Shown here: piece after piece, positions 198 to 55,539 of the stretch
Position numbering within the stretch: the stretch's first letter is position 1
Layout of the letters: each line of letters opens with the position of its first letter
Source: Candidatus Wallbacteria bacterium
GTDB taxonomy: Bacteria > Muiribacteriota > UBA9980
Assembly (NCBI GenBank): GCA_022703765.1
Contig: JAKJHQ010000001.1
Span: 81,854-145,853, forward strand
Direction of reading: 5' to 3'
Length of the DNA: 64,000 bases
Notes under the pieces: model-generated
Seen by the model: only the letters and a program-made list of their open reading frames with translations
Database searches by the model: none
Told to the model about the DNA's origin: nothing
Translations under genes and position numbers: made by a program

Positions 198-980
198 CTA
201 TTTTCCCTTTCCGCCGCCTTTGCCGCCGCCTTTGCCGCCGCCTTTGCCGCCGCCCTTTCCTTTGTCGTCGCCTTTGCCCTTACCTCTGCCCATAATTTTT
301 TTACGGTCTTCACGGCTCAATTTTACGCGGCGCTCGACTTCGTTTTCAAATGAAAGCGAGCCGCCTAAGGATTTTTTAATATCCTGGCCTATTTTTTTCT
401 GCTTGTTCCCGCTTTCGGAATAAAAAAAAGTTATAGTTTCGCCCAGCGAATCCAGAAGGTCGCGCTTATAAAGATCGTAATAAGTATGGGTGCAAATCAC
501 ATCGTTTTTAAGCATGGAAACTTTCAGCGTTATATTTACGCAGATTATTATAACCCTCATCCCTTCGATAGTTTCCGACTCTATATATCCGTCGAACCCT
601 ACCGTATTTTTAAGAACCGGGTCGTTTTCTATTATGCGCTTAATGGATTTTTTCATCAATTCGACCGGATACGCGCATACGCCGCCTGCTTCGGAGCTGA
701 AAATCTGGCGGTCCTTATAGAACCTGGCGTCCCATGAATAAGCGAACGATTCCGAAAGCAGGAACGTGTGAATGGCCTCCGAAAGGCATTCGGCTTTGAT
801 GTTGAATATAAATTTAGAAGCCTGTCCGGTTTCTTCGCGCGTTATAAAAGTAAGCGAAGCGAGGCCTATGAATAAAACAGCGGCCATGCCGATAACAAGG
901 GCAAGGGCCATGCCGCGCCGCCCGGTTTTAACTCCGGCGGTATATTTTTTAAAACTCTTATCACATAGAAGAGTTGACAT
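198..980 (-). CDS. GspK-like pseudopilin/secretion protein with a C-terminal Gly-Lys low-complexity tail
   Basis: The N-terminus (RRGMALALVIGMAAVLFIGLASL) is basic then hydrophobic, like GspK. The C-terminus is KGKGGGKGGGKGGGKGGGKGK, encoded by tandem GCCGCCTTT-type repeats at 198-290. It sits between two pseudopilin genes. Confidence 0.4.
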   Translation of the reverse strand: MSTLLCDKSFKKYTAGVKTGRRGMALALVIGMAAVLFIGLASLTFITREETGQASKFIFNIKAECLSEAIHTFLLSESFAYSWDARFYKDRQIFSSEAGGVCAYPVELMKKSIKRIIENDPVLKNTVGFDGYIESETIEGMRVIIICVNITLKVSMLKNDVICTHTYYDLYKRDLLDSLGETITFFYSESGNKQKKIGQDIKKSLGGSLSFENEVERRVKLSREDRKKIMGRGKGKGDDKGKGGGKGGGKGGGKGGGKGK

Positions 981-1530
981 TTTTAAACCTCACAACGAAT
1001 ATGCTTCCGCTGTAATCTTTTTCGCCGCTATTTTTAAATTTGATTCCTACCATCAGAGCCCCGTAACTTAAAGCCGTAAAATTAACGCTTTCTACGTTTT
1101 TTATAAAAACCGGATAAATTTCTTCATCGGCCTTTTCGAGCGCGCCCGCCGCGTCGAAAGAAGCGAGGGCCCCGTTTTCGGCCTTTAAAACCACTATTCT
1201 GCCGTCAAGCTCGCGGAATTTCACATATCCGAGAGTTTTAACCGGAGCCGGTTCCAGTATTTCAACCGCTCTGGCAAGCCTTTTTTCTAAAAGCTGGTCA
1301 GCCGTCCTGTAAACTCTTTGCACAGCCACTTCTTCATTGAGGCCCGGAATTTTTTTAGAAAAATAATTAAAAATATAAAAACCTACGGTTATTACCATTG
1401 AAAAAAGCGCAATGGATATCAGGGTCTCAACCAGAGTAAAAGCCCTGCGGCCGGCGCCGCGCCGTTTGCAGCAGGCAATACTGCATGTTTTTTCGTTTGT
1501 TTTAGCGATTTTCATAAAATCAATAACCAT
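961..1530 (-). CDS. Prepilin-type N-terminal cleavage/methylation domain protein (T2SS/T4P pseudopilin)
   Basis: The motif RAFTLVETLISIALFSMVI is a G/A-FTLxE prepilin signature followed by a TM helix. The leader before the motif is unusually long, so the true start is uncertain. Confidence 0.55.
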   Translation of the reverse strand: MVIDFMKIAKTNEKTCSIACCKRRGAGRRAFTLVETLISIALFSMVITVGFYIFNYFSKKIPGLNEEVAVQRVYRTADQLLEKRLARAVEILEPAPVKTLGYVKFRELDGRIVVLKAENGALASFDAAGALEKADEEIYPVFIKNVESVNFTALSYGALMVGIKFKNSGEKDYSGSIFVVRFKNVNSSM

Positions 1531-2595: not shown

Positions 2596-3765
2596 ATGGA
2601 TTTCAGTCTCAGAATCGTTGAAAGATTGCCCAAGTACCTTCAACTGGCGTGTCATTTAAAAGAGCTTGGCCATAAATACATAAGCTCGTCGATTCTTTCA
2701 AAACATTTTTTCATAGACCAGAATAACATAAAAAAGGACCTTTCATTTCTTAATTTAAATGGAAAGCCTAATAAGGGTTATGAAATTAACGAGTTTATTT
2801 CGGCCGTTAAAATGGTCCTGGGCACGACGACGGTCAACAAGGCTATTGTCGTAGGTTCGGGAAACCTGGGCCGGGCGGTCAGCAATTATTCCAATTTTAC
2901 GGACTACGGCCTTAAAATAGTGGCCATGTTCGATGACTCGCCCGAAAAAATAGGAGGTTCGGTAGAAAATTTTAAAATATTACCGCTTGACAATCTTTCA
3001 GAAGTAATTACCAAACTTGGCGTCAAACTCGCCATACTCACGGTGCCGGCAAAGAGCGCGGCAAAAGTGGCCGGTAAATTGTACGATCTCGGTATCAGAT
3101 ATTTCTGGAATTTCGCTCCCGTCCATTTAAAACTGCCGGACGACGCGATAATCAAAAACGAGAATTTAGCAGCGAGTTACATGTTTTTGTCATACCAGAT
3201 AAACCTAAACACTTATAGAAATAATGGAGGTAAAATCGAAATGGTTAACGGCGACATCGAAAAACGCATTTACGAAGCGTTTAACAAATACGCGAAATCA
3301 CGCGATAATTTAATCCCCATTCTGCAGGACGTCCAGGATATCAGAGGCTATATTTCAAAAGAAGACATAAGAAAGATATCCGATTATCTCAACATAGCCG
3401 ACTCTAAAGTTTACGGCGTTGCCACCTTTTACAACCAGTTTAAGCTCACGCAGCCCGGTCACTATCAGATTTCCGTTTGCCGCGGCACCGCATGCCACGT
3501 AAAAGGCTCTCTCAATATTATTAATTCATTAAAAGACCATTTGAAGGTCGAAATAGGCCAGACTACCCGTGATAAAATATTCTCGCTCCAGCAGGTTGCC
3601 TGCCTCGGCGCATGCTCCATCGCTCCGGTAATAATGATAAACGATAAATTTTACGGCCACCTCGACGTATCTAAAACCCTTGCGATAGTAGATAAATTAA
3701 AAGCCGACTACCTCAGCGAAAAAGAAGCCGGAAAAACTCCCGCTGTAAGCATGGCAGGACAATAA
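2596..3765 (+). CDS. Redox-sensing repressor Rex fused in frame to the NuoE-like [2Fe-2S] HydC (gamma) subunit of the bifurcating [FeFe]-hydrogenase
   Basis: Residues ~1-205 carry the Rex winged-helix plus Rossmann fold (VVGSGNLGRAV, ILTVPA, RYFWNFAP, SYMFLSYQ). Residues ~216-389 are NuoE/HndA-like with a thioredoxin-like fold and a 4-Cys [2Fe-2S] motif (CRGTACH...CLGACSIAP). A GGAGG at 3226-3230 sits 10 nt before an internal ATG at 3241 (MVNGDIEKR...). Confidence 0.7.
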   Translation: MDFSLRIVERLPKYLQLACHLKELGHKYISSSILSKHFFIDQNNIKKDLSFLNLNGKPNKGYEINEFISAVKMVLGTTTVNKAIVVGSGNLGRAVSNYSNFTDYGLKIVAMFDDSPEKIGGSVENFKILPLDNLSEVITKLGVKLAILTVPAKSAAKVAGKLYDLGIRYFWNFAPVHLKLPDDAIIKNENLAASYMFLSYQINLNTYRNNGGKIEMVNGDIEKRIYEAFNKYAKSRDNLIPILQDVQDIRGYISKEDIRKISDYLNIADSKVYGVATFYNQFKLTQPGHYQISVCRGTACHVKGSLNIINSLKDHLKVEIGQTTRDKIFSLQQVACLGACSIAPVIMINDKFYGHLDVSKTLAIVDKLKADYLSEKEAGKTPAVSMAGQ

Positions 3766-3846: not shown

Positions 3847-5667
3847 ATGAGTAAAGTTAAAGTGTATATAGGTATGGGCACCTGCGGCCTCGCCCAGGGC
3901 GCACTTGAAATAAAAAAAACCATCGAAGATTTTTTAGACACAAGAAAAATAAATTTTGAAATCGTTCCCGTGGGATGCATCGGCTATTGCTCGCGCGAAG
4001 TCATGGTAGATTTCGAATTCGAATCGATGCCGAGAATATCCTACTGCGAAATTACCCCGCAAAACACGGTAGAGTTCCTCATCGAATTAATCGACAATAA
4101 AAATTATTCGAATAAATGGCTGCTCGGCACATATAAAAAATCGCCCAACCTCGTCTGCCTTTATGAAACGCCTTATTTCGTAAAACAAAAAAGGGTCGCC
4201 CTCGAAAATTGCGGAATAATAAATCCTTATTCCATAGACGAATATTCGGCCGTCCACGGCTTCGTGGCCCTGAAAAAAGTCCTTTCCGCAATGAAACCCG
4301 AAGACGTAATAGACGAAATTAAAAAATCAGGCTTAAGAGGACGCGGCGGCGGCGGATTTCCGACCGCAATCAAATGGGAGCTCGCGTTCAAGCAGCCCGG
4401 CACTAAGAAATATATAGTAATGAACGCCGACGAAGGCGATCCGGGCGCGTTCATGGACCGCGCCATCCTCGAAAGCGATCCGTTCAGAGTTATCGAAGGC
4501 ATAACCATCGGCGCTTACGCCACAGGCGCTTCGGCCGGCTATATTTACGCCAGGGCCGAATATCCGCTCGCCATAGAAAGACTCGAAAACGCCATAAAAA
4601 TATGCAAAGAAAAAGGATATCTCGGCAAGAATATAATGAATTCTAAGTTTTCCTTCGACCTTAAAGTAAAAAAAGGCGCCGGCGCTTTCGTTTGCGGCGA
4701 AGAAACCGCTCTTCTCGCCTCCATAGAAGGCAAACGCGGCATGCCCACTCCGCGCCCTCCTTACCCCGCTGAAAAAGGCCTTTTTGGAAAACCCACGGTC
4801 ATAAATAACGTCGAAACGTTCGCCAACGTCCCCTGGATATTGCGCGAAGGCTCCGATAAATTCGCGGCTTACGGCGTCGGCAATTCGCGCGGCACCAAAG
4901 TTTTCGCGGTAACCGGAAGAGTGAAATATTCCGGCCTGATAGAAGTCCCTATGGGCATAACCCTTAAAGAGCTCATCTACGACATCGCCGGCGGCGTTCC
5001 GGAAGGACGCAAATTCAAAGCCGTACAGATAGGCGGCCCCTCCGGCGCGTGCATGCCCGAAAAACTCATGGACACCAAAATCACATACGAAGAACTTAAA
5101 GCCAACGGCGCTATGATGGGCTCCGGCGGCATGGTAGTAATGGACGACACGACCTGCATGGTCGATGTGGCGCGCTTTTTCATGAATTTCATCCAGACCG
5201 AATCCTGCGGAAAATGCATTCCATGCCGCGAAGGCACGAAGCGCCTCTATGAAATACTCGACAGGATAGTTTTAAATACGTCCAACCAGAAAAAATCTTC
5301 AGACGAACTGCTCAGATTCAAAGGCGTCCTCGAACTCGAAGAGCTCTGCTCCGTTATAAAAAACAGTTCCCTGTGCGGCCTCGGACAGACGGCGAGCAAT
5401 CCCGTATTATCGACTCTCAAACACTTCAGAGACGAATATGAAGCTCACATATTTGAAAAGAAATGCCCGACGCACGTCTGCTCGTCGATGGTCAAATGCT
5501 CGATCATCAGCGAAAAATGCAAAGGCTGCAGCCTTTGCGCGAGAAAATGCCCTCACGGCGCCATTTACGGCAAACCCGGTTCGCCTTACCTTATAGCGGC
5601 AGACAAATGCACCGGATGCCTTGTGTGCATCAGCACATGCAAATTCTCAGCTATCGTAAAGGAGTGA
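3847..5667 (+). CDS. hydB: [FeFe]-hydrogenase flavoprotein subunit HydB (NuoF-like, NADH/FMN-binding, extra Fe-S domains)
   Basis: N-terminal thioredoxin-like [2Fe-2S] (GMGTCGLAQGA), the NuoF core (GLRGRGGGGFPTAIKWE; GKCIPCREG) and two C-terminal [4Fe-4S] ferredoxin motifs (CKGCSLCARKCP; CTGCLVCISTC). A GGAGG RBS precedes the start. Confidence 0.85.
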   Translation: MSKVKVYIGMGTCGLAQGALEIKKTIEDFLDTRKINFEIVPVGCIGYCSREVMVDFEFESMPRISYCEITPQNTVEFLIELIDNKNYSNKWLLGTYKKSPNLVCLYETPYFVKQKRVALENCGIINPYSIDEYSAVHGFVALKKVLSAMKPEDVIDEIKKSGLRGRGGGGFPTAIKWELAFKQPGTKKYIVMNADEGDPGAFMDRAILESDPFRVIEGITIGAYATGASAGYIYARAEYPLAIERLENAIKICKEKGYLGKNIMNSKFSFDLKVKKGAGAFVCGEETALLASIEGKRGMPTPRPPYPAEKGLFGKPTVINNVETFANVPWILREGSDKFAAYGVGNSRGTKVFAVTGRVKYSGLIEVPMGITLKELIYDIAGGVPEGRKFKAVQIGGPSGACMPEKLMDTKITYEELKANGAMMGSGGMVVMDDTTCMVDVARFFMNFIQTESCGKCIPCREGTKRLYEILDRIVLNTSNQKKSSDELLRFKGVLELEELCSVIKNSSLCGLGQTASNPVLSTLKHFRDEYEAHIFEKKCPTHVCSSMVKCSIISEKCKGCSLCARKCPHGAIYGKPGSPYLIAADKCTGCLVCISTCKFSAIVKE

Positions 5668-5673
5668 TTTTTC

Positions 5674-7395
5674 GTGAAAACAAAGTTAAAAATGACCATA
5701 AATAATAAAGAAGTAGATTTCATAAAAGGCGAAACCATCTATCAGGTGGCTAAAAAAGCCGGACTCTTCATACCCACTCTCTGCTATATGGAAGGCTACA
5801 AGCCTTCCGGCGCATGCCGCATCTGCGTAGTGGAAGACGTAAAAACCGGAAGGCTTATAGCGTCGTGCTCGTATCCCGCCGAAAGCGGCATGGAAGTGCG
5901 CACCGATTCGCCCCAGGTAAGAATGTCGCGTAAAAAAATCATCGAGCTCCTGCTTTCCAACCATCCGCAGGACTGCCTCACATGCACCAAGAGCGGCGCC
6001 TGCCTTCTTCAGAACCTTTCCAAGCAGTACGGCGTGGATGAAATAGCTTTCCAGGGCGGAGCTAAAAAGAAAGCCGTAATCGATAAAGCTTCCCCGTCGG
6101 TAGAGCGCGATATGGCCAAATGCATTCTCTGCGGCCGCTGCGTAACGGTCTGCTCCGAAAAGCAGGGAGTTTCCGCCATAGATTTCTCGCACCGCGGATT
6201 CAGCACCCAGGTCGCTCCCGGAAGTTTTAAATCCCTCGCGGAAGGCAACTGCGTTTCATGCGGCCAGTGCATCATGGCCTGCCCCGTAGGCGCGCTGCAT
6301 GAAATTTCGCACAAAAAACTCGTCATCGACGCTATTATAAACCCAAATAAAAAAGTGGCGCTTCAGTTCGCGCCCGCCTGCCAGATGACGTTTCCAGAAT
6401 ATTTCAAAAAATCCATATCGGTCGACGACGCAACGAAAAAGATCACAGGCGCGCTTCGCAGCATCGGCGTGAATTTCGTTTTCGACACCTGCACCGCGGC
6501 CGATATCACCATAGTCGAAGAAGCCAAAGAACTCGTGGAACGCCTTACCAAGAAAAACAAGCCGCTTCCCATGTTCACTTCCTGCTGCCCTGCATGGATA
6601 AACTTTATAGAAACCTTCTACCCAAAACACACCAAACATCTGTCCAGCTGCAAATCGCCGCATATGATGAAAGGCGCGCTCATCAAACATCTGAGCGAAA
6701 AGCTTTTAAAAACGAAAGCTAAAGACCTTTTCGTGGTATCGGTAATGCCCTGCGTCGCTAAAAAATCCGAAACAGGCCGTCCCCAGCTTGAAAACGAAGG
6801 CATGGCAAACGTGGACGCGGTTCTTACCACGCGCGAGCTGTTCTCGCTTCTGGATGAATTCGGCATACAGTACGAAAAAATACAGGATTCCGATTACGAC
6901 CGTCCTTTCGCCAACGCTTCCGGCGCAGGCAAGATATTCGGAGCGACCGGCGGAGTCATGGAAGCCGCCATCCGCACCGCGTATTACTACGTCACCGGCA
7001 AAGAGCTCGATAACGTGGATTACAAACCAGTGCGCGGCATGTCCGAAATAAAGCGCGCCACGGTAGATATAGCCGGAACGCAGGTAAACGTGGCCGTCGT
7101 CAACGGCCTCGGAAACGTCGTTGACATACTCGAAGACATTTCCGCGGGAAAATCCGATCTGCACTTCATCGAAGTTATGAGCTGCCCGTCGGGCTGCGTG
7201 GGCGGCGCGGGACAGCCATACAACACCGACGCGGAACTTCTCAAATCGCGTACAAAAACGACCTATAAAGAAGACGAAAATTCGAAAATCAGGCGTTCGC
7301 ACGAAAACCCGGACGTAATAGAACTGTACGACAAGCACATAAACGAGCACGAAGCGCACGATTTATTACATACAAGGTATAAGGGGGACAAATAA
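5674..7395 (+). CDS. hydA: [FeFe]-hydrogenase catalytic subunit HydA (M3-type, H-cluster)
   Basis: H-cluster signatures L1 TSCCPAW, L2 MPCVAKKSE and L3 EVMSCPSGCVGGAGQP. The N-terminus has a [2Fe-2S] ferredoxin fold (CRICVVE) and accessory [4Fe-4S] motifs. The GTG/ATG start is 7 nt after the hydB stop. Confidence 0.9.
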   Translation: MKTKLKMTINNKEVDFIKGETIYQVAKKAGLFIPTLCYMEGYKPSGACRICVVEDVKTGRLIASCSYPAESGMEVRTDSPQVRMSRKKIIELLLSNHPQDCLTCTKSGACLLQNLSKQYGVDEIAFQGGAKKKAVIDKASPSVERDMAKCILCGRCVTVCSEKQGVSAIDFSHRGFSTQVAPGSFKSLAEGNCVSCGQCIMACPVGALHEISHKKLVIDAIINPNKKVALQFAPACQMTFPEYFKKSISVDDATKKITGALRSIGVNFVFDTCTAADITIVEEAKELVERLTKKNKPLPMFTSCCPAWINFIETFYPKHTKHLSSCKSPHMMKGALIKHLSEKLLKTKAKDLFVVSVMPCVAKKSETGRPQLENEGMANVDAVLTTRELFSLLDEFGIQYEKIQDSDYDRPFANASGAGKIFGATGGVMEAAIRTAYYYVTGKELDNVDYKPVRGMSEIKRATVDIAGTQVNVAVVNGLGNVVDILEDISAGKSDLHFIEVMSCPSGCVGGAGQPYNTDAELLKSRTKTTYKEDENSKIRRSHENPDVIELYDKHINEHEAHDLLHTRYKGDK

Positions 7396-7799
7396 TGAAG
7401 AAGATATTGATAGTTGACGACGACGTCGACGTAAGAGAAATAATAACCGAAACTTTATCGTCTAACGGCTATTCTATCGAAGTAGCCGAAACAGGCGAAG
7501 AAGGCTGGGAAAAATTCGAAAAATTCAATCCTGATCTGGTCATACTCGACTTGATAATGGAAACTTACGACGCCGGCTTTATACTCGCTTATAAAATAAA
7601 GAAAGCCAGGCCCGAAGTTCCCGTAATACTGGCGACATCGGTAAACCAGGAATCAGAAATACAGTTCGATCTTAACGAAGCTAAAGAAAGACAGTGGATA
7701 AAAGCCGACATGTTCCTCGATAAACCCATCAACCCCGGTATTCTGGTTGAAAAAGTGAACAATATTTTAAACGCGCCGGCTAATAAATCGCACCATTAA
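7395..7799 (+). CDS. Single-domain response regulator (CheY-like receiver), translationally coupled to hydA
   Basis: Receiver residues are intact: DD (IVDDDVD), phospho-acceptor Asp (LVILDLIM), Thr (ILATSV) and the Lys-Pro (DKP). The ATG overlaps the hydA TAA as TAATG. Confidence 0.8.
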   Translation: MKKILIVDDDVDVREIITETLSSNGYSIEVAETGEEGWEKFEKFNPDLVILDLIMETYDAGFILAYKIKKARPEVPVILATSVNQESEIQFDLNEAKERQWIKADMFLDKPINPGILVEKVNNILNAPANKSHH

Positions 7800-7842
7800 A
7801 ATAATCTATTTGTCCGCCATTAACGGATAATGAAACCTTAGT

Positions 7843-7924
7843 CGAGAGTTGAGAGCCAGAGGATTTTTATAAGATAAAATACGCCTATTTTATCGGCTGA
7901 AAGTCCTTCAGCTCTCAACTCTCG
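7843..7924. other. Structured element: a 14-bp perfect inverted repeat (CGAGAGTTGAGAGC...GCTCTCAACTCTCG) enclosing a nested 9-bp hairpin
   Basis: Arms at 7843-7856 and 7911-7924. The inner hairpin is GATAAAATA-cgcc-TATTTTATC. It lies between the hydCBA-REC operon and hydS-HK. Confidence 0.5.
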
Positions 7925-7967
7925 GCTTTATCAGCCCGGCCCTTTAATAAAATCAATCCCGATATGG

Positions 7968-7996
7968 TTGTCAATAACCCGATAATATGATATACT
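7968..7996 (+). promoter_or_regulatory. Candidate promoter TTGTCA-17-TATACT upstream of hydS-HK
   Basis: TTGTCA at 7968-7973, a 17-nt spacer, then TATACT at 7991-7996, about 70 nt upstream of the start at 8065. Confidence 0.35.
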
Positions 7997-8064: not shown

Positions 8065-10068
8065 TTGATTATGTCAATAGTATCCACCATAGGCGAAAAA
8101 TGTAAAAAATGTTACGCGTGCATTAAAAGCTGCCCCGCTCACGCCATAAAAGTCAAAGACGGAAAGGCGAGCGTAATCAGCTTCAGATGCATTTCCTGCG
8201 GCCACTGCACCACCGTTTGTTCACAGAACGCCAAGGTAGTGCTTTCTTATTTCAACGAGTTAAAAAACGATATATCTTCAAAAGAGATCGACGCCATAGT
8301 GGCCCCTTCTTTCACCGTCAGTTTTCTCGACGTCGGCGAAAAATTCGTGAGCGTGCTTAAGGCGCTCGGCTTTAAAAACGTATATGAAGTAGGATTCGGC
8401 GCGGACCTTGTCACTCTTGCCTATAAAAAATATCTAAGCGCAAATAAAGATAAAACCGTAATAGCCACTCCATGCCCGGCCATAGTGAAATATGTCCAGA
8501 AATACGAACCTGAAATGATAAGCCTTCTGGCGCCGATAGTGAGCCCGATGGTCGCCTGCGCCCGCGTGGCCAAGCAGATCAACCCTTCGCGTAAAGTCGC
8601 TTTCATAGGCCCCTGCATCGCCAAGATCGACGAAAAAAGCAATTACAGCCGCGACCTCGATTATTCGATAACTTTCGAGGAGCTCAAACTCTGGATCGTT
8701 GAAAATAAAATAGATATAGAAAAGCTCAAAGATCTCGATTTCGACCCGCCGAAAGCCGGACTGGGAGCTATTTACCCGGTGACCGGCGGCCTGCTCAGAT
8801 GCGCCGATAAAACCGAAGACGTAATAGATAATGAAACGATAGTAACTGAAGGCAAAAACCGCGTGCTGATGGTGCTCGATTCCATAAAAAAAGGCGCGCT
8901 CAAAGGTAAGTTTATCGATATGCTCTTCTGCCTGGGGTGTATCGAAGGACCCAAAATATGTTCGGAACTCAATTATTTCGAGAAAAAATCGAAAATGTCG
9001 GAATACGTTAAAAAACGCGCGTCACAATCGTCTAAAGAAGAATGGGAACAGAACATAGAAAAATATAAAAATATAGACCTCAGCGTCAGGTTCGATTCCG
9101 AGGAAGTTTCCGACATCAAAGAAGCCGACGCGGCCGAAATAAAAAAAATACTCATTCAAATGGGAAAAACGCAGCCCAAAGACGAATTGAACTGCGGCGC
9201 CTGCGGCTATCCGTCATGCCGCGCCAAAGCGCGCGCCATAATAGCGGGGCTCGCCGAAAAAGAAATGTGCCTGCCCTACGTGATCGAAAAACTCGAAGAA
9301 AATATAAACCTGCTCGAGCAGTCCAATTCCATGCTCAAATCTACTCAAAACGAGCTCATCCAGAAAGAAAAGCTCGTTTCGCTGGGTCAGATGGCGGCGG
9401 GCGTGGCGCACGAAATAAACAATCCTCTGGGCACCGTTTTATTATATGCGCATATGTTGAACGAACAAATCGAAAACGAAGACATGAAATCCGACGTCAA
9501 AACTATCATAACCGAAATTAACCGCACCAAAGAGATAATTACCGGAATGCTCAATTTTTCCAGAGAAAACAAGCTTACCATATCTGAATTCGATTTTTCA
9601 AAATTCATAAAGGAAATTTGCGAAAAAGTCCAGTACGATTTTTCAGCGGTCGGAATCAACATAGTAATTAAAGTCAACTGTCCCGACAACGTTTCCATAG
9701 ACGCCGACCAGACGGCGCTCGCGCAGGTTTTTTCCAACCTTCTGTCCAACGCGAAAGACGCTATAATGGAAGCAAAGCGCGATATCGGCAAGATCAAAGT
9801 TGAAGTGATAAAATACGATGAAGAGCTTTCAATTTTATTTACCGACAATGGAACCGGCATACCCAAGGATAAAATTGCCAAACTTTTCACGCCGTTTTTT
9901 ACGACCAAGGGCTACGGCAAAGGTACGGGACTGGGACTGCCGGTCGTTTACGGCATTATAAAAATGCACCGCGGCAAGATAATGGTCGACAGCATAGAAG
10001 GCGAATCCACTACATTCAAGATAAACCTTCCGCTCAAGTCGAACGTCAGCGCGGGGCTACTCGGTTAG
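8065..10068 (+). CDS. Sensory [FeFe]-hydrogenase-like (HydS-type H-cluster domain) fused to a histidine kinase
   Basis: The N-terminus has two [4Fe-4S] ferredoxin motifs (CKKCYACIKSCP; CISCGHCTTVC). The H-domain has a degenerate L1 TPCPA in which the proton-relay Cys is replaced by Pro, L2 GPCIAKIDE, and L3 DMLFCLGCIEGP. The HydS-specific Cx2Cx4Cx16C motif is present (CGACGYPSC...EMC, 9193-9270). A HisKA H-box (AAGVAHEINNPLG) and HATPase_c N, G1 and G2 boxes follow (NLLSNAKDA, DNGTGIP, GTGLGLPVVYG). Confidence 0.8.
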   Translation: MIMSIVSTIGEKCKKCYACIKSCPAHAIKVKDGKASVISFRCISCGHCTTVCSQNAKVVLSYFNELKNDISSKEIDAIVAPSFTVSFLDVGEKFVSVLKALGFKNVYEVGFGADLVTLAYKKYLSANKDKTVIATPCPAIVKYVQKYEPEMISLLAPIVSPMVACARVAKQINPSRKVAFIGPCIAKIDEKSNYSRDLDYSITFEELKLWIVENKIDIEKLKDLDFDPPKAGLGAIYPVTGGLLRCADKTEDVIDNETIVTEGKNRVLMVLDSIKKGALKGKFIDMLFCLGCIEGPKICSELNYFEKKSKMSEYVKKRASQSSKEEWEQNIEKYKNIDLSVRFDSEEVSDIKEADAAEIKKILIQMGKTQPKDELNCGACGYPSCRAKARAIIAGLAEKEMCLPYVIEKLEENINLLEQSNSMLKSTQNELIQKEKLVSLGQMAAGVAHEINNPLGTVLLYAHMLNEQIENEDMKSDVKTIITEINRTKEIITGMLNFSRENKLTISEFDFSKFIKEICEKVQYDFSAVGINIVIKVNCPDNVSIDADQTALAQVFSNLLSNAKDAIMEAKRDIGKIKVEVIKYDEELSILFTDNGTGIPKDKIAKLFTPFFTTKGYGKGTGLGLPVVYGIIKMHRGKIMVDSIEGESTTFKINLPLKSNVSAGLLG

Positions 10069-10095: not shown

Positions 10096-11592
10096 ATGGA
10101 AAAATTACTAGGAAAGGTACTTGTAATAGACGATGAAGACCAGTTCAGAATAGCCCTTACGAAGGTCATAAGCAAGCACGGCTATGAAGCCACGCCTTTT
10201 CCTTCGGCTTTCGCCGCGCTCGACTATTTGAAAGACCATCACGAAGAAATAGACATAACCGTCGTCGATATGAAAATGGACGGCATGGACGGCATCGAGT
10301 TCATCACCAGAATAAATGAATTATATCCGACTATCGTTCCCATAATGGTCACGGCATATTCTTCGATAGATACGGCCGTAAATTCTATCAAGCACGGCGC
10401 TTTCGACTTTATATCCAAGCCTTTCAGCCCGGAACAGATTTTATACGCTCTTCAAAAATCCATGACGCGTAGAAGCCTGCTTGTCCAGAATAAAAAATTA
10501 AAGGCCGAAGCGGAACGCTCCCTTAAAATACTGGGCCAGGAAAAGTCGAAAATACACACGGTAGTCCAGTGCATGGCCAACCCTCTCATAGTCCTTAACA
10601 GCAGCCTGGAAATAGTGCTTTATAATCCTTACTTTGAAAATATCGACATAAATCACCGCATAAAACTTTTCACCAAAATCACCGATTACGATTCGGAATT
10701 CATCAATCAGATAAAAACGCTGGTCAATTCGATGATCGAAAATAAAACGCTCACGATGATCCAGAAAGAATTTCAGATAGAAGAAAAGTTTTTTCAGGCC
10801 ACCTGCGCCGCAGTCATTACCGACCACGAAATCGAAGGCTACTGCGTAGTTTTAAACGATATAACGAAACTCAAAGAAGTCGAAAATTTAAAAAACCAGT
10901 TCGTGTCCATGGTCGCCCACGAAATAAAAGCGCCGATTTCGGCGTCGCTGGGCTATATTTATCTTATACTTGACGGCTATATAACCGACAGGGATAAAAT
11001 ACTCGAAAAACTCGGCCGGTGCAAAGAAAGGTCAGAAACGCTGCTTGAAATGGTCAATGATCTGCTGCAGATATCGCGCCACCAGACGAACCGGCTGAAC
11101 CTCGAAATAAAGCCGGTCAATATCCGCGAAAAAATAGAAAACGCGCTGGAATTCTATGCGCAGGAAATGAAAAAGAAAAATCTCGAACTGGCGAAGGAAT
11201 TTTCCGGGGCGAATTGCGAAATACTCGCCGACGATAAATCGCTCGATATGATACTGAACAATCTCATATCAAACGCCATAAAATATACTCCCGAAGGGGG
11301 CAAGGTGAGCGTAAGCTACACCAACGACGGCGATTACGGCGCGATAGCGGTTAAAGACTCGGGATACGGAATCAGAAAAGAAGACATGCCAAGGCTTTTC
11401 ACTGAATTTTTCAGGTGCAAAACGAAGGAAACTTCAAAAATATCGGGAACGGGCCTGGGGCTATCGGTGGTTAAAAAATTCGTGACCGCGCAGAAAGGAA
11501 CTGTAACGGTAGACAGCGAGTATCAAAAAGGAAGCGTTTTCACGGTAAGGCTGCCGCTTAGCAGAGAACAGAGAACAGAGAACAGAGAATAG
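10096..11592 (+). CDS. Hybrid sensor: N-terminal receiver domain, PAS-like region, then histidine kinase
   Basis: Receiver motifs VLVIDDED, ITVVDMKMDG, IMVTAYSS and ISKPF. The middle region is PAS-like. HisKA is SMVAHEIKAPIS and HATPase_c is NLISNAIKYT...GTGLGLSVVKKF. The 3' end carries four AGAGAAC heptamer repeats encoding REQRTENRE. Confidence 0.8.
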   Translation: MEKLLGKVLVIDDEDQFRIALTKVISKHGYEATPFPSAFAALDYLKDHHEEIDITVVDMKMDGMDGIEFITRINELYPTIVPIMVTAYSSIDTAVNSIKHGAFDFISKPFSPEQILYALQKSMTRRSLLVQNKKLKAEAERSLKILGQEKSKIHTVVQCMANPLIVLNSSLEIVLYNPYFENIDINHRIKLFTKITDYDSEFINQIKTLVNSMIENKTLTMIQKEFQIEEKFFQATCAAVITDHEIEGYCVVLNDITKLKEVENLKNQFVSMVAHEIKAPISASLGYIYLILDGYITDRDKILEKLGRCKERSETLLEMVNDLLQISRHQTNRLNLEIKPVNIREKIENALEFYAQEMKKKNLELAKEFSGANCEILADDKSLDMILNNLISNAIKYTPEGGKVSVSYTNDGDYGAIAVKDSGYGIRKEDMPRLFTEFFRCKTKETSKISGTGLGLSVVKKFVTAQKGTVTVDSEYQKGSVFTVRLPLSREQRTENRE

Positions 11593-11697: not shown

Positions 11698-13074
11698 ATG
11701 GTAATCGACGAAAATAATATTCAAAGACTGATCGAAGAAAATAAAAACGTTAAAAAAGAAGAAATTCTAAGGATAATCCGTAAGAGCCTCGAATTCAGGC
11801 CACTCGAAATAGCCGAGGCCGCGGCGCTTTTAAATTGCGAAGACGAAAGCCTCATATCCGAAATTAAAACGGCGGCTAAAATCGTTAAAGAAAAAATCTA
11901 CGGCAGGCGCATGGTTTTATTCGCCCCTCTTTACCTTTCGAATTACTGCATAAACAACTGCGCATACTGCGGATTCAAGCAGTCCAACAAGGACATAGCT
12001 CGCAAGACCCTTTCGTTCGAGGAAATAGCCGAAGAAACTTTAAAGATATTAAAAAGCGGACACAAAAGAATATTGCTGGTGGCCGGCGAAGACCTTAAAA
12101 AATGCAGCGTCGATTATATCGTAAAGGCCATCGAAACAGTTTATAAAGTCGATTACAAAGGAAATAAAATCAGGCGCGTCAACGTGAACCTGGCTCCTCT
12201 CGAACACGACGACCTGGTCAAAATTAAAAACGCCGGAATCGGCACCTATCAATTATTCCACGAAGTGTTTCACCGCGAAACATATAAAAAGCTCCATCCG
12301 TCAGGGCCTAAAAAAGATTACGACAAGCGCATATCCATATTCGACAAATGCTACCAGGCGGGGATCGACGACGTCGGAATCGGCGTGCTGTACGGCCTTT
12401 ACGATTATAAGTTCGAAACCCTGGCGCTTTTGACTCAGGCAAAATATCTGGATGACAAATATAAAATCGGGCCGCACACGATTTCAATACCGCGCCTGGA
12501 ACCCGCCGCCGGATGCGATTTCAATCAAAACACCGGATACGGAGTGGCCGACGAAGATTTCAAAAAAGTGGTGGCCGTGCTCAGGCTCGCCGTACCTTAT
12601 ACCGGAATAATTTTATCCACGCGCGAAAAACCCGCTCTCAGAGACGAGCTTATAGAACTCGGCGTATCGCAGCTTTCTGCCGGGTCAAAGACCGAACCGG
12701 GCGGCTACAGCAAACCCCAGCAAGCCACGGGGCAGTTCGTAGTTTCCGATGAACGCTCGCTAGACGAAATAATATCGGCCCTGGCTAATAAAGGCTTCCT
12801 GCCGTCATTTTGCACTTCGTGCTACCGCAGCCTCAGGACGGGCGAATCTTTCATGGCGCTTTCTAAAACAGGCCACATACATGAATTTTGCGATATAAAC
12901 GGGCTTCTGACTTTTTACGAATACCTCATAGACTTCGCTTCGCCGGAAACTAAAGAGGCCGGAATGCTGCTTATCGAAAAGCTCAAACCGGAACTGCTGT
13001 CGGCGGAGCAAATCCAAAAATTCGACGCCTTCGTCAAAAAGTTCAAGGCCGGCGACCGCGATCTTTATGTTTAA
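11698..13074 (+). CDS. hydG: [FeFe]-hydrogenase maturase HydG (radical SAM tyrosine lyase)
   Basis: Radical-SAM CX3CX2C motif (CINNCAYC) plus the HydG-specific C-terminal CX2CX22C (CTSCYRS...HEFC). About 458 aa. The overall ThiH/HydG-like layout, with C-terminal cysteines, distinguishes it from ThiH. Confidence 0.8.
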   Translation: MVIDENNIQRLIEENKNVKKEEILRIIRKSLEFRPLEIAEAAALLNCEDESLISEIKTAAKIVKEKIYGRRMVLFAPLYLSNYCINNCAYCGFKQSNKDIARKTLSFEEIAEETLKILKSGHKRILLVAGEDLKKCSVDYIVKAIETVYKVDYKGNKIRRVNVNLAPLEHDDLVKIKNAGIGTYQLFHEVFHRETYKKLHPSGPKKDYDKRISIFDKCYQAGIDDVGIGVLYGLYDYKFETLALLTQAKYLDDKYKIGPHTISIPRLEPAAGCDFNQNTGYGVADEDFKKVVAVLRLAVPYTGIILSTREKPALRDELIELGVSQLSAGSKTEPGGYSKPQQATGQFVVSDERSLDEIISALANKGFLPSFCTSCYRSLRTGESFMALSKTGHIHEFCDINGLLTFYEYLIDFASPETKEAGMLLIEKLKPELLSAEQIQKFDAFVKKFKAGDRDLYV

Positions 13075-54391: not shown

Positions 54392-55539
54392 ATGAATATT
54401 GAATTAAATAATTTAAAAGAATCTACGGCATTTTTAAATACGCTTATAGATAATATCACCTCCGCCATTTTTATCGTTGACAATAACATGGAAGTGCGCA
54501 GCTTTAACGATTCGTTCAAGGCCCTTTTTAACGCCAGCGAGGCCGAAACGCTCATTAAAAGATGCGGAAACGCCATCGGCTGCTATTACGCCATCACCGA
54601 AAACAAGCAGTGCGGCGACACTTCGTACTGCACCGTATGCTCCCTCAGAAAATCCCTTATTACTGCGCTCACTAAAAAAGTACCGGCCTACCGAGAAAAA
54701 CTTATAAGAGAGTTTTATATCGACGGCGTTAAAACACTCAAGCATCTTAGATACACGACAAAATATATTGACTGGAACGGCTCCACCATGGTGCTTGTTA
54801 TAGTTGACGACATAACCGAAATCGAAACGCAAAAAATTAAATTCGAAGAATTGAACGAACAGAAAAACAAGCTGCTCGGAATGGCCGCGCACGATCTTAG
54901 AAACCCCATAAGCGTCGTCAATATGTACTCAAGAGCTTCATACTCGAAGATTTAAGCGACACGAAAAGCCAGTACGCGGACTTCGTGATGGAAATCAACA
55001 ACGCCAGCAAATTCATGCTCACGCTTCTTTCCGACATACTCGACCTTTCAAAAATCGAGGCCGGAAACCTCGATCTCAAAATAAAAGAACACGACTATAA
55101 AGCGTTTTTAGAACATAATATAAAATTGAACCTGGTCATCGCCGAAAAGAAAAAAATTTCCGTCGGGCTCGAATACGCCGCGGAACTAAAAGTAATAAAA
55201 TTTGATAAATACAAGCTGGAGCAGGTTTTAAATAATCTAATAGGAAACGCTATTAAATATTCTTATCCCGAAACCAGGATCACGGTGAAAGTAAGCTCGC
55301 CGCATGAAGGAAAAATACTCACCGAAATCATAGACGAGGGCCAGGGAATACCCGCGGAAGAACTCGAAAACATATTCGTGGAATTCAACAAATCGAGCGT
55401 GCAGTCTACTGGCGGCGAAAAAAGCACTGGACTCGGCCTCGCCATTTCAAAAAGAATCATCGAAGGTCATAACGGAAAAATATCGGTGACAAGCGAAGTG
55501 AAAAAAGGATCTAATTTTTATTTCGAACTGCCTTTATAA
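54392..55539 (+). pseudogene. Frameshifted sensor histidine kinase (Cys-rich PAS-like sensor + HisKA + HATPase_c)
   Basis: ORF 54392-54955 ends inside the HisKA H-box (MAAHDLRNPISVVNMYSRAS...). A frame-B ORF is open from 54901 and continues ILEDLSDTKSQYADFV... through HATPase_c (GTGLGLAISKRI). One -1 shift near 54940 joins the two frames. Confidence 0.6.

What the first reader, a model, noticed from the sequence alone, without database searches (positions are those of the whole stretch)
8065..10068. HydS-type sensory [FeFe]-hydrogenase domain fused directly to a histidine kinase (no PAS domain)
The protein has an N-terminal 2x[4Fe-4S] ferredoxin and an H-cluster domain with the hallmark changes of sensory (group C) hydrogenases. 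L1 is TPCPA, with the proton-relay Cys replaced by Pro. L2 is PCIAKIDE and L3 is DMLFCLGCIEGP, with the L3 Met replaced. The HydS-specific Cx2Cx4Cx16C extra cluster motif is present. Instead of the usual C-terminal PAS domain, the protein runs straight into a coiled-coil, a HisKA domain (H at AHEINNPLG) and HATPase_c. Histidine-kinase-linked sensory hydrogenases have been inferred from genome context (group C1) but remain essentially uncharacterised biochemically. A single-polypeptide H2 sensor-kinase is a compact and testable H2-signalling module.
Basis: partly seen in the sequence, partly recalled or inferred. Interest (0 to 1): 0.8.

Follow-up and report, generated by a model that had tools for sequence, protein, structure and literature searches.

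The report
Hydrogenase-like H2 sensor fused to kinase
This gene encodes a slow, sensor-type iron hydrogenase joined directly to a signalling kinase, most likely letting the bacterium measure hydrogen gas and adjust its neighbouring hydrogen-producing enzyme; the design is real and interesting to test, but it is common in anaerobes and has already been noted in the literature.

Summary
One intact ORF (8071..10068, 665 aa from the ATG) encodes a 2x[4Fe-4S] ferredoxin, an [FeFe]-hydrogenase H-domain, a Cx2Cx4Cx16C cluster domain, a 47-residue helix, HisKA and HATPase_c, with no PAS.

It is not rare. The same architecture occurs in at least 58 GTDB species across about 15 phyla, including cultured Ignavibacterium album. 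Two MAG papers mention it in passing. I found no biochemical study.

The window is a Candidatus Wallbacteria MAG. The gene lies in a conserved cluster: [rex] hydC hydB hydA, HK-hydrogenase, single-domain receiver, receiver-gated second kinase, hydG.

New points from this work:
- The family has Cx2C instead of the canonical Cx3C in motif L3.
- The distance from the last cluster Cys to the phospho-His is always 47 +/- 7n residues (174 of 174 members), which argues for a rigid coiled-coil coupling.
- The same sensor module is also fused to sigma54 activators, MCP, GGDEF and PAS outputs.
- The "group C1" label is doubtful.

Verdict: a new member of a known but uncharacterised kind, of moderate interest.

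The parts
8071..10068 (+). HK-fused sensory [FeFe]-hydrogenase gene (665 aa; alternative TTG start at 8065)
   Evidence: ORF. Orthologues of 665 aa start at the equivalent ATG. Upstream sequence.
8092..8238 (+). N-terminal 2x[4Fe-4S] ferredoxin domain (C11,14,17,21 and C40,43,46,50)
   Evidence: Pfam Fer4 families. All eight Cys are invariant in 119 sequences.
8290..8952 (+). H-domain ([FeFe]-hydrogenase large-subunit fold)
   Evidence: PF02906, 150 bits. AF2 pLDDT is mostly above 90. Foldseek match to DdH, CpI and CbA5H, E about 1e-20, TM up to 0.66.
8467..8481 (+). L1 motif TPCPA (C299 replaced by Pro134; C300 equivalent is C135)
   Evidence: Alignment to CpI. In the family this position is P79/A34/T22/S20/D11/F1 and never Cys.
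8608..8634 (+). L2 motif GPCIAKIDE (M353 replaced by G180; C182, K185 and E188 conserved)
   Evidence: Gly in 170 of 170 matched members.
8917..8952 (+). L3 motif DMLFCLGCIEGP (M497 replaced by L285; C287-x2-C290, a one-residue deletion relative to canonical Cx3C)
   Evidence: Alignment to HDCR HydA2. PAS-type HydS and group A keep Cx3C. Cx2C in 168 of 169 family members.
9193..9270 (+). C-terminal cluster domain C375-x2-C378-x4-C383-x16-C400
   Evidence: PF04060. The four Cys are invariant. The same motif is described for TmHydS and TamHydS (PMC8163306).
9271..9408 (+). Signalling helix or coiled coil linking C400 to H447, with 'a' positions L401, L408, L415, L422, L429, V436, A443
   Evidence: AF2 predicts a single helix 401-466. 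Heptad positions. The Cys-to-His distance is 33, 40, 47, 54 or 68 in 174 of 174 members.
9382..9567 (+). HisKA / DHp domain, phospho-acceptor His447 (nt 9409-9411)
   Evidence: PF00512. H447-E-x-N-N-P-L is invariant. ZraS is the best PDB sequence and fold match.
9706..10038 (+). HATPase_c catalytic domain with intact N, G1, F and G2 boxes
   Evidence: PF02518. N556, N560, D592-x-G-x-G596, F606/P608/F609 and G616-x-G-x-G-L-G622 are invariant.
2596..3765 (+). rex-hydC fusion gene (Rex wHTH + Rossmann fused to the NuoE-like [2Fe-2S] subunit)
   Evidence: Pfam, NCBIfam; the same fusion is in L002 and L003.
3847..5667 (+). hydB (NuoF-like FMN/NAD(H) subunit)
   Evidence: Pfam, NCBIfam.
5674..7395 (+). 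hydA, catalytic group A [FeFe]-hydrogenase of the trimeric HydABC type, with intact TSCCP, MPC and Cx3C motifs
   Evidence: GenBank names it '[FeFe] hydrogenase, group A'.
7395..7799 (+). Single-domain response regulator (receiver only); its start overlaps the hydA stop
   Evidence: Pfam. A single-domain REC is present in 50 of 58 orthologous loci.
7968..7996 (+). Sigma70-like promoter candidate (TTGTCA-17-TATACT with TG) upstream of the sensor kinase gene
   Evidence: Consensus scan only. Not evidence of function.
10096..11592 (+). Receiver-gated second histidine kinase (REC, about 145 aa that is probably PAS, HisKA, HATPase_c)
   Evidence: Pfam. The orthologous position holds REC-HisKA-HATPase in all loci examined. 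The I. album copy has PAS.
11698..13074 (+). hydG, H-cluster radical SAM maturase
   Evidence: TIGR03955, 500 bits, above its cut-off.

Best explanation
The gene encodes a cytoplasmic, probably homodimeric sensor kinase whose input domain is a sensory-type [FeFe]-hydrogenase.

Shown:
- The domain order is 2x[4Fe-4S], H-domain, [4Fe-4S] domain, helix, DHp, CA.
- All cluster ligands, the [2Fe]-pocket residues and the kinase catalytic boxes are conserved.
- The group A proton relay is absent.
- The genomic linkage to hydCBA is tight.

Inferred:
1. HydEFG install a [2Fe] subcluster. H2 binds and is split slowly at this H-cluster, as in TmHydS and TamHydS. This shifts the redox or conformational state of the H-domain and accessory clusters according to H2 partial pressure.
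2. The change is passed to the C-terminal cluster domain. Its fourth ligand, C400, caps a continuous coiled-coil helix that carries the phospho-acceptor His447 exactly 47 (+/- 7n) residues downstream. A small displacement or rotation of that helix would switch the kinase/phosphatase balance.
3. Phosphoryl groups flow to the adjacent single-domain receiver and/or to the receiver of the adjacent REC-(PAS)-HK. That second kinase integrates a further signal and relays to an output not encoded nearby.
4. The net effect is control of the neighbouring confurcating/bifurcating HydABC hydrogenase, at the level of expression or activity, alongside NADH sensing by Rex.

In some lineages the same sensor is wired directly to sigma54 transcription activators, which supports a transcriptional role there.
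For: - **Architecture and motifs:**
- **[2Fe]-pocket residues conserved:** A78-P79-S80, S158-P159, G-P-C182-x-x-K185-x-x-E188, C135, C287, C290.
- **Kinase boxes:** invariant. The kinase half is about 34% identical to ZraS, fold TM 0.75.
- **Structure:** AF2 gives pLDDT 84.5 with a single helix 401-466 joining C400 to H447.
- **Linker register:** the Cys400-His447 distance is 33, 40, 47, 54 or 68 in 174 of 174 members, with Leu at 401, 408, 415, 422 and 429.
- **Nearest relatives of the sensor part:** PAS-type group C HydS (34-36% identity, about 230 bits) against about 70 bits for group A.
- **Neighbourhood (58 loci):** hydA in 47 plus 3 partial, single REC in 50, REC-HK in essentially all, rex in 26, hydG/E/F frequent.
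- **Modularity:** the same input module is fused to sigma54-AAA+-HTH, MCP, GGDEF, GGDEF-HD, GAF-HK, HisKA_3 and PAS outputs. An NtrC-type regulator follows the kinase in L023 and L037.
- **Published properties of relatives:** TmHydS and TamHydS bind an H-cluster, have low turnover and a stabilised reduced state; TamHydS has Km(H2) 90-100 uM and H2-induced structural change (PMC10055695, PMC8163306, PMC10407848, PMC13104023).
Against: - No cofactor, H2 response or phosphorylation can be tested here.
- The L3 spacing is Cx2C, not the Cx3C found in every characterised [FeFe]-hydrogenase including PAS-type HydS. M497L abolished proper [2Fe] insertion in a prototypical enzyme (PMC10055695), although TamHydS has Leu there naturally. 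Canonical H-cluster binding is therefore not guaranteed.
- In TamHydS the C-terminal cluster is not reduced by H2 (PMC13104023). [quoted passage not shown]
- No DNA-binding output is encoded in the cluster. Sigma54-promoter and Rex-box searches near the operon gave nothing above chance. The regulated target is inferred from adjacency only.
- AF2 was run as a monomer; the dimeric coiled coil is assumed from histidine kinase precedent.
Confidence: 0.6

Rival explanations
1. It is a redox-pool sensor rather than an H2 sensor. The three accessory [4Fe-4S] clusters equilibrate with reduced ferredoxin (or with HydABC), and the kinase reports cellular reductant load. H2 matters only indirectly, or the H-cluster serves as a vent.
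For: - The N-terminal 2x[4Fe-4S] domain is the usual ferredoxin-facing electron entry module.
- The gene sits with Rex, another redox sensor, and with a ferredoxin/NADH-dependent HydABC.
- The TamHydS C-terminal cluster responds to strong reductant but not to H2 (PMC13104023).
Against: - The H-cluster ligands and pocket residues are invariant across more than 170 sequences and about 15 phyla. That is hard to explain if H2 chemistry were irrelevant.
- A plain Fe-S/PAS sensor would suffice for redox sensing.
- Characterised relatives react with H2 at low concentration.
Confidence: 0.2
2. It is a pseudo-hydrogenase. Because of the Cx2C deletion and the Gly, Leu and Pro substitutions, the H-domain binds only a [4Fe-4S] cluster (Nar1/IOP-like) or a modified site, and senses O2, CO, NO or cluster integrity instead of H2.
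For: - The Cx2C spacing is unique to this clade.
- Some related Bacteroidales paralogues are visibly degenerate (L052 has C499 replaced by Asp, and the L2 Lys is displaced).
- A published search pipeline requires CxxxC to call a protein an [FeFe]-hydrogenase (PMC11216029).
Against: - K185, E188, P181, A78-P79-S80 and S158-P159 contact the [2Fe] subcluster ligands in CpI and remain invariant or nearly so.
- The gene almost always co-occurs with hydA and often with hydE, hydF and hydG in one cluster.
- The AF2 H-domain is confidently hydrogenase-like.
- Pro, Ala or Ser at the C299 position and Gly at the M353 position are normal for group C enzymes that do bind the H-cluster (PMC10055695).
Confidence: 0.12
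3. It is a metabolically active hydrogenase subunit, and the kinase domain is incidental or regulatory only for the enzyme itself.
For: One MAG paper raised a metabolic role for a group C enzyme encoded with bifurcation subunits (PMC8542988).
Against: - The whole group A proton pathway is missing: C299 to P, E279 to Y, E282 to Y, S319 to A.
- A complete catalytic HydA with intact motifs lies two genes upstream.
- The kinase boxes are invariant.
- The same module is swapped onto MCP, GGDEF and sigma54 outputs.
Confidence: 0.04

Closest known systems
HK-fused group C [FeFe]-hydrogenases already noted in genomes (Ignavibacterium album IALB protein P0077; lineage V Elusimicrobia, Meheust et al. 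2020; Ca. Lernaella, Williams et al. 2022)
   Same: - Same family: 44-47% identity over the full length, with identical domain order and length.
- Same position after hydCBA, followed by REC and REC-HK.
- The papers describe a histidine kinase domain on a group C hydrogenase next to a trimeric group A enzyme, with Rex nearby.
   Different: - In this Wallbacteria copy the receiver gene lies upstream (coupled to hydA) instead of downstream.
- Rex is fused to HydC.
- Pro occupies the C299 position.
- None of these proteins has been studied biochemically in the literature I could search.
Thermotoga maritima HydS (group C, M2f) and Ruminococcus albus HydS
   Same: - N-terminal 2x[4Fe-4S], and an H-domain without the proton-relay Cys.
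- Gly at the M353 position and Tyr at the F417 position.
- Cx2Cx4Cx16C cluster followed by MCLP + helix.
- Encoded beside another hydrogenase.
- Closest sequence relatives of the sensor part outside the family: 34-36% identity.
   Different: - They end in a PAS domain and signal through separate partners (a PP2C phosphatase in R. albus). Here PAS is replaced by a direct coiled coil into a histidine kinase.
- They keep Cx3C in L3; this family has Cx2C.
- The M497 position is Ser in TmHydS and Leu here.
Thermoanaerobacter mathranii HydS (M2e, 'group D'; HydDB lists the T. wiegelii homologue as C1, histidine kinase-linked)
   Same: No PAS. Leu at the M497 position. A C-terminal Cx2Cx4Cx16C cluster. 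A kinase-like gene nearby. An AF2 homodimer along the C-terminal helix has been proposed.
   Different: - The kinase-like protein is separate, not fused.
- The M353 position is Ser, L3 is Cx3C and the L2 Glu is not conserved.
- It is more distant in sequence: 31% identity, 150 bits.
[NiFe] regulatory hydrogenase HoxBC/HupUV with the histidine kinase HoxJ/HupT (HydDB [NiFe] group 2b)
   Same: It works like this. A low-activity hydrogenase serves as the H2 input of a two-component system that controls expression of energy-converting hydrogenases (HydDB table; PMC8163306).
   Different: The metal centre and fold are unrelated. The sensor and kinase are separate polypeptides joined through a PAS-like domain. 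It is found in aerobic H2 oxidisers rather than fermentative anaerobes.
Cofactor-bearing cytoplasmic sensor kinases of the NtrB/AtoS/ZraS HisKA type (for example the ZraS cytoplasmic core, PDB 9JFJ)
   Same: The DHp + CA core is 34% identical to ZraS, with fold TM 0.75 and the same H, N, G1, F and G2 boxes.
   Different: The input is a four-cluster hydrogenase module rather than a periplasmic, PAS or GAF domain. No NCBIfam model reaches its cut-off for the whole protein.

Membership tests
[FeFe]-hydrogenase H-domain (H-cluster-binding fold, Pfam PF02906) | Profile match above the curated threshold, and the hydrogenase fold | tested here: met
   PF02906 scores 150 bits against a cut-off of 22.1. 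The AF2 model matches DdH, CpI, CbA5H and HydABC HydA with E about 1e-18 to 1e-21 and TM up to 0.66.
[FeFe]-hydrogenase H-domain (H-cluster-binding fold, Pfam PF02906) | Four Cys ligands of the H-cluster (CpI C300, C355, C499, C503) | tested here: met
   C135, C182, C287 and C290 align to them and are invariant in 119 sequences.
[FeFe]-hydrogenase H-domain (H-cluster-binding fold, Pfam PF02906) | Canonical L3 spacing C-x3-C (ExMxCxxGCxxG) | tested here: not met
   The motif is C287-L-G-C290, a one-residue deletion. Cx2C is found in 168 of 169 family members. Group A, PAS-type HydS and T. wiegelii have Cx3C.
[FeFe]-hydrogenase H-domain (H-cluster-binding fold, Pfam PF02906) | Catalytic L1 TSCCP with proton-relay Cys, plus the group A proton pathway (E279, E282, S319) | tested here: not met
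   C299 is Pro134, E279 is Y118, E282 is Y121 and S319 is A154. No family member has Cys at the C299 position.
[FeFe]-hydrogenase H-domain (H-cluster-binding fold, Pfam PF02906) | [2Fe]-pocket residues (APS, SP, PCxxKxxE) | tested here: met
   A78-P79-S80, S158-P159, P181-C182, K185 and E188 are invariant or at least 90% conserved.
[FeFe]-hydrogenase H-domain (H-cluster-binding fold, Pfam PF02906) | Actual binding of the [2Fe] subcluster and reaction with H2 | not testable with these tools
   This needs maturation with HydEFG or [2Fe]adt, followed by FTIR, EPR and activity assays.
Group C 'sensory' HydS (M2f) | N-terminal 2x[4Fe-4S] + H-domain + C-terminal Cx2Cx4Cx16C cluster | tested here: met
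   The definition is from PMC8163306.
Group C 'sensory' HydS (M2f) | C299, M353 and M497 positions replaced as in sensory enzymes | tested here: met
   The residues are Pro, Gly and Leu. In HydDB group C the C299 position is Pro in about 10% of sequences and the M353 position is Gly in about 51% (PMC10055695).
Group C 'sensory' HydS (M2f) | C-terminal PAS domain | tested here: not met
   No PAS hit. AF2 shows one continuous helix 401-466 between the cluster domain and the DHp. R. albus-type proteins have PAS at that place.
Group C 'sensory' HydS (M2f) | Closest sequence relatives are group C sensors; encoded beside a group A hydrogenase | tested here: met
   About 230 bits to PAS HydS against about 70 bits to group A. 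hydA is two genes upstream here and present in 47-50 of 58 loci.
HydDB subgroup [FeFe] C1 (histidine kinase-linked) | Assignment by the HydDB k-NN classifier or by phylogeny | not testable with these tools
   HydDB cannot be run here, and its table is truncated in the stored copy. The one readable C1 entry (T. wiegelii) is TamHydS-like with a separate kinase, and it is a weaker match than the R. albus type. An HK-domain-containing enzyme was published as C3, while Cloacimonadota 'C1' enzymes have a separate kinase gene.
HisKA-class sensor histidine kinase | DHp with H-box His, and a CA domain with N, G1, F and G2 boxes | tested here: met
   HisKA 50 bits and HATPase_c 83 bits. All box residues are invariant. 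ZraS is the best PDB match.
HisKA-class sensor histidine kinase | Cognate receiver encoded nearby | tested here: met
   REC at 7395-7799 and REC-HK at 10096-11592. A single REC is present in 50 of 58 loci, and a REC-HK is present in every locus where it was checked.
HisKA-class sensor histidine kinase | ATP-dependent autophosphorylation and phosphotransfer | not testable with these tools
   Biochemical assay required.

The most novel reading that the evidence does not exclude
The Cx2C clade (HK-, sigma54-, MCP- and GGDEF-fused sensors) may be a distinct, so far unrecognised subgroup of [FeFe]-hydrogenase-derived sensors.

Its active site would be structurally different from every characterised H-cluster site. 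Surveys that require CxxxC would under-count it. Its signal would be transmitted mechanically from a cluster-ligating Cys through a register-locked coiled coil to the output domain.

In the HK branch the output would be a three-protein relay (sensor HK, single-domain REC, REC-gated HK) with no transcription factor. That could mean post-translational control of the bifurcating hydrogenase, or of the Rex-HydC fusion.
Probability: 0.2. Interest if true: 0.75.

Novelty: new member of a known kind. Interest (0 to 1): 0.45.

Why it matters
How putative sensory [FeFe]-hydrogenases turn H2 into a cellular signal is still open. As of 2026 only TmHydS and TamHydS have been characterised. [quoted passage not shown]

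A version in which the sensor is wired directly to a histidine kinase gives a simple biochemical read-out: H2-dependent autophosphorylation and phosphotransfer to two adjacent receivers. The 47 +/- 7n linker rule found here gives a concrete, mutable hypothesis for signal transmission.

The family is widespread in fermentative and syntrophic anaerobes, so it probably shapes how many uncultured lineages respond to H2 partial pressure. It could also serve as a compact genetically encoded H2 biosensor.

This particular gene adds little beyond the I. album orthologue, which comes from a cultured organism.

Tried and rejected
- **Sigma54 promoter search (TGGCAC-N5-TTGCW):** in L023, where an NtrC-type regulator sits between the sensor kinase and hydCBA, there were 12 matches at up to 2 mismatches against 6.6 expected, and none was convincing. 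In the window the single match is far from the cluster. Not used as evidence.
- **Rex operator search (TTGTGAA-N6-TTCACAA, up to 3 mismatches):** one distant match, fewer than expected by chance.
- **HydDB subgroup from the literature:** Greening et al. 2016 is not held. The HydDB supplementary table is truncated just where group C begins. The Land 2020 supplement has no searchable alignment.
- **Naming the organism through the genome-contig scan:** It was solved instead by exact look-up of neighbouring proteins, which gave Candidatus Wallbacteria.
- **Pfam scan of all 150 representatives in one call:** Replaced by BLAST against reference output domains plus Pfam on ten unknown tails.
- **Separate-ORF or frameshift explanation for the kinase half:** considered and rejected. 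The ORF is continuous and conserved full-length in more than 170 orthologues.
- **Hairpin at 7840-7927 as a conserved riboswitch-like element:** considered and rejected. It is unique to this window, and the close relative L002 has a different hairpin at that spot.
Full report
**1. What is in the sequence**

An uninterrupted ORF runs 8065..10068 on the + strand. The TTG at 8065 is followed two codons later by an ATG (8071). All close and distant orthologues begin at the equivalent MSIVSTIG and are 655-690 aa long. I therefore number from ATG 8071 (665 aa).

Pfam finds a 2x[4Fe-4S] ferredoxin, Fe_hyd_lg_C (150 bits), the PF04060 'FeS' domain, HisKA and HATPase_c, and no PAS. No NCBIfam model reaches its cut-off for the whole protein. 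The best partial matches are AtoS and ZraS for the kinase half and 'monomeric [FeFe] hydrogenase' for the H-domain.

**2. Motifs**

| Motif | Window residues | Change relative to CpI |
|---|---|---|
| L1 | T133-P134-C135-P136-A137 | C299 to Pro; C300 kept |
| L2 | G180-P181-C182-x-x-K185-x-x-E188 | M353 to Gly |
| L3 | D283-M-L285-F-C287-L-G-C290-I-E-G-P294 | M497 to Leu |
| C-terminal cluster | C375-x2-C378-x4-C383-x16-C400 | not present in CpI |

- The rest of the group A proton pathway is also gone: E279 to Y118, E282 to Y121, S319 to A154.
- Residues that contact the [2Fe] subcluster in CpI are invariant or nearly so: A-P-S (78-80), S-P (158-159), P-C-x-x-K-x-x-E.
- The F417 position is Tyr, as in TmHydS.
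- The kinase H-box (H447-E-I-N-N-P-L) and the N, G1, F and G2 boxes are invariant in 119 sequences. The kinase is therefore predicted to be catalytically competent.

**3.

C287 and C290 are separated by two residues. Group A enzymes have the canonical Cx3C, including the hydA two genes upstream. So do the PAS-type HydS of Ruminococcus albus, Acetoanaerobium noterae, Monoglobus and Mogibacterium, and the HydDB 'C1' example from Thermoanaerobacter wiegelii.

Cx2C occurs in 168 of 169 family members. It tracks with a clade that also contains sigma54-, MCP- and GGDEF-fused relatives, whereas Cx3C tracks with the PAS-type proteins. One published pipeline uses CxxxC as a requirement for calling [FeFe]-hydrogenases (PMC11216029). 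Whether this altered loop still holds a normal H-cluster cannot be decided here.

**4. Structure**

An AlphaFold2 model built on 119 sequences has mean pLDDT 84.5 and pTM 0.65, with the H-domain mostly above 90.

- It predicts a single helix from residue 401, directly after the last cluster ligand C400, through His447 to residue 466.
- This is followed by the second DHp helix (470-499) and an alpha/beta CA domain.
- Foldseek matches the N-terminal ~400 residues to DdH, CpI, CbA5H and HydABC HydA (E 1e-18 to 1e-21, TM up to 0.66). It matches the C-terminal part to the ZraS cytoplasmic core (TM 0.75).

**5. The linker rule**

I measured the distance from the last Cys of the Cx2Cx4Cx16C motif to the phospho-acceptor His across 178 family members. 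The set comprised database hits, genome loci and the window protein. The two motifs were both found in 174 of them:

| Distance (residues) | Members |
|---|---|
| 33 | 1 |
| 40 | 58 |
| 47 | 111 |
| 54 | 3 |
| 68 | 1 |

Every value is 47 +/- 7n. In the window protein the 'a' positions of this heptad frame are L401, L408, L415, L422, L429, V436 and A443, and the 'd' positions are mostly polar.

This is the signature of a continuous signalling coiled coil in which the register between sensor and DHp must be preserved. It is the strongest internal evidence that the hydrogenase module controls the kinase.

**6. Organism and spread**

- Exact look-ups of neighbouring proteins name the source as a Candidatus Wallbacteria MAG (bacterium ADurb.Bin243, consecutive GenBank accessions OQA80634-OQA80639).
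- The architecture is common. At least 120 clusters at 90% identity share the same length and domains.
Of the 80 loci kept, 55 carry a full-length fused gene (58 with three fetched earlier). They come from Ignavibacteriota, Bacteroidota, Desulfobacterota, Myxococcota, Elusimicrobiota, Planctomycetota, Verrucomicrobiota, Spirochaetota, Acidobacteriota, Calditrichota, Hydrogenedentes, Marinimicrobia, Clostridia and others.
- An exhaustive search with the sensor part alone found 966 clusters at 50% identity with E <= 1e-30.

**7. Genomic context**

In the window the order is:
1. rex-hydC fusion
2. hydB
3. hydA
4. single-domain REC, whose start overlaps the hydA stop
5. a 265-bp spacer with a strong hairpin and a sigma70-like promoter candidate
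6. the sensor kinase
7. REC-(probable PAS)-HK
8. hydG

Frequencies across the 58 loci:

| Neighbour within 8 kb | Loci |
|---|---|
| hydA | 47 (+3 partial) |
| hydB | 45 |
| hydC | 41 |
| single-domain REC | 50 |
| rex | 26 |
| hydG | 25 |
| hydE | 16 |
| hydF | 15 |

- The usual order is [rex] hydC hydB hydA, sensor-HK, REC, REC-HK, [hydG/E/F]. This includes cultured Ignavibacterium album.
- The second kinase is REC-HisKA-HATPase (~380 aa) in all loci examined.
- No DNA-binding response regulator is part of the conserved module.
- In two Clostridia MAGs the sensor kinase is instead followed by an NtrC-type sigma54 activator. In L023 that activator lies directly upstream of hydCBA.

**8. The module is a swappable input domain**

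The Fer4-H-FeS module ends in a conserved MCLP[YF] + helix. It is found fused to:
- HisKA/HATPase (about 45 of the top 150 representatives)
- PAS (about 67)
- sigma54 AAA+ with HTH_8 (14; for example L063 from Peptococcaceae and L066 from Geobacter)
- MCP signalling domains
- GGDEF and GGDEF-HD
- GAF-GAF-HK
- HisKA_3 kinases

This repertoire is what one expects of a bona fide sensory input domain. It argues against a metabolic role.

**9. Comparison with what is known**

- Group C/D sensory [FeFe]-hydrogenases are defined by the features above (PMC8163306).
- Only TmHydS (PAS, group C) and TamHydS (no PAS, group D) have been characterised. They have low turnover, a stabilised reduced H-cluster state and CO tolerance. 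TamHydS has Km(H2) of 90-100 uM.
- In HydDB group C, Pro occupies the C299 position in about 10% of sequences and Gly the M353 position in about 51%. The window's substitutions are therefore ordinary for the group.
- The 2026 TamHydS study found that the C-terminal cluster is not reduced by H2, and that H2 induces a secondary-structure change independent of that cluster's redox state. I therefore propose conformational rather than redox transmission through the C-terminal domain.
- The sensor part of the window protein is closest to fused family members (41-46% identity, ~350 bits). Next come PAS-type HydS (34-36%, ~230 bits), then the HydDB C1 example (31%, 150 bits), then group A (22-27%, ~70 bits).
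- The fused architecture has been mentioned twice in passing. Meheust et al. [quoted passage not shown] Williams et al. 2022 report a 'Group C3' hydrogenase containing a histidine kinase domain next to a Group A3 gene.
- I found no biochemical work on it.

**10. Mechanism proposed**

Shown: the architecture, the conservation pattern, the linker periodicity and the neighbourhood.

Inferred:
1. The H-domain holds a HydEFG-made H-cluster that reacts slowly with H2.
2. The resulting state change is relayed through the C-terminal cluster domain and the register-locked coiled coil to the DHp. This sets the kinase/phosphatase balance of a homodimer.
3. Phosphoryl groups go to the single-domain REC and/or the REC of the second kinase.
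4. The relay adjusts expression or activity of HydABC, complementing NADH sensing by Rex.

The wiring within the three-protein relay and its final target are unknown.

Rivals, in order of likelihood:
1. A redox-pool sensor.
2. A pseudo-hydrogenase with a non-canonical site that senses something else.
3. A metabolic enzyme (unlikely).

**11. Verdict**

The 'C1' label is doubtful and the novelty was over-estimated. This is a Wallbacteria member of a widespread, previously noticed but biochemically uncharacterised family.

Its value is as an experimental handle on H2 signalling. The Cx2C site and the 47 +/- 7n linker rule are concrete new hypotheses.

Noticed in passing
window 2596-3765 (+): Rex (DNA-binding N-terminus + NAD(H) Rossmann; NCBIfam Rex 197 bits) is fused in one ORF to the NuoE-like [2Fe-2S] subunit HydC of the hydrogenase. 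The same fusion is in the 85%-identical relative (L002, L003). In 24 other loci rex and hydC are separate adjacent genes. No paper describing such a fusion was found.
   Followed up: partly
L063:8001-10211; L066:5147-7417; 14 of the top 150 representatives (e.g. P0190, P0197, P0199): The same Fer4-H-domain-FeS sensor module is fused directly to a sigma54-interaction AAA+ domain and HTH_8. That would be a putative one-component H2-responsive enhancer-binding protein. In L063 it follows hydF and hydG.
   Followed up: partly
P0172, P0204, P0269 (MCPsignal); P0175, P0182 (GGDEF); P0228 (GGDEF+HD); P0221 (GAF-GAF-HK); P0174 (HisKA_3 HK): Further output domains occur on the same sensor module, so it behaves as a general signalling input domain.
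   Followed up: partly
window 7840-7927 (+): A long imperfect hairpin lies in the spacer between the receiver gene and the sensor kinase gene: 42-nt arms, dG -51 kcal/mol, z-score -9. It is unique in the window. The close relative L002 has an unrelated GC-rich hairpin at the same place. It is possibly an inter-operon terminator or stabiliser.
   Followed up: partly
window 7393-7397: The start codon of the single-domain response regulator overlaps the hydA stop codon, which suggests translational coupling to the catalytic hydrogenase. In most other genomes this receiver lies downstream of the sensor kinase instead.
   Followed up: no
L008, L010, L012, L015, L058 (Ignavibacteria / Melioribacteraceae): Two complete hydC-hydB-hydA sets flank the module sensor-HK, REC, REC-HK, REC. 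One sensor may therefore serve two hydrogenase operons.
   Followed up: no
L052:1738-3615 (-), L036:1366-3258 (-), L044:14606-16459 (+): Bacteroidales genomes that carry the HK-fused sensor also encode a ~620-aa paralogue (sensor + long coiled coil + PAS). Some copies look degenerate: in L052 C499 is Asp and the L2 Lys is displaced.
   Followed up: partly
window 54392-54955 and 54985-55539 (+): Two adjacent ORFs in different frames match the DHp and the ATPase parts of a histidine kinase. This may be a split or frameshifted kinase gene.
   Followed up: no
window 198-1530 (-): ORF 961-1530 has a prepilin-type N-terminus (FTLVETLISIALF). ORF 198-980 ends in a Gly-Lys repeat tail (GKGGGKGGGKGGG...).
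   Followed up: no
window 1-64000: Only hydG is present in the 64-kb window. No hydE or hydF was detected by tblastn with the I. album proteins, although many related loci cluster all three maturases with the sensor.
   Followed up: yes
window 5674-7395 (+): The catalytic HydA scores 723 bits on NCBIfam 'NADH-dependent [FeFe] hydrogenase, group A6', just under its 765-bit cut-off. The I. album orthologue is listed as group A3 (bifurcating) in HydDB. Whether this HydABC bifurcates is therefore not settled by annotation.
   Followed up: no
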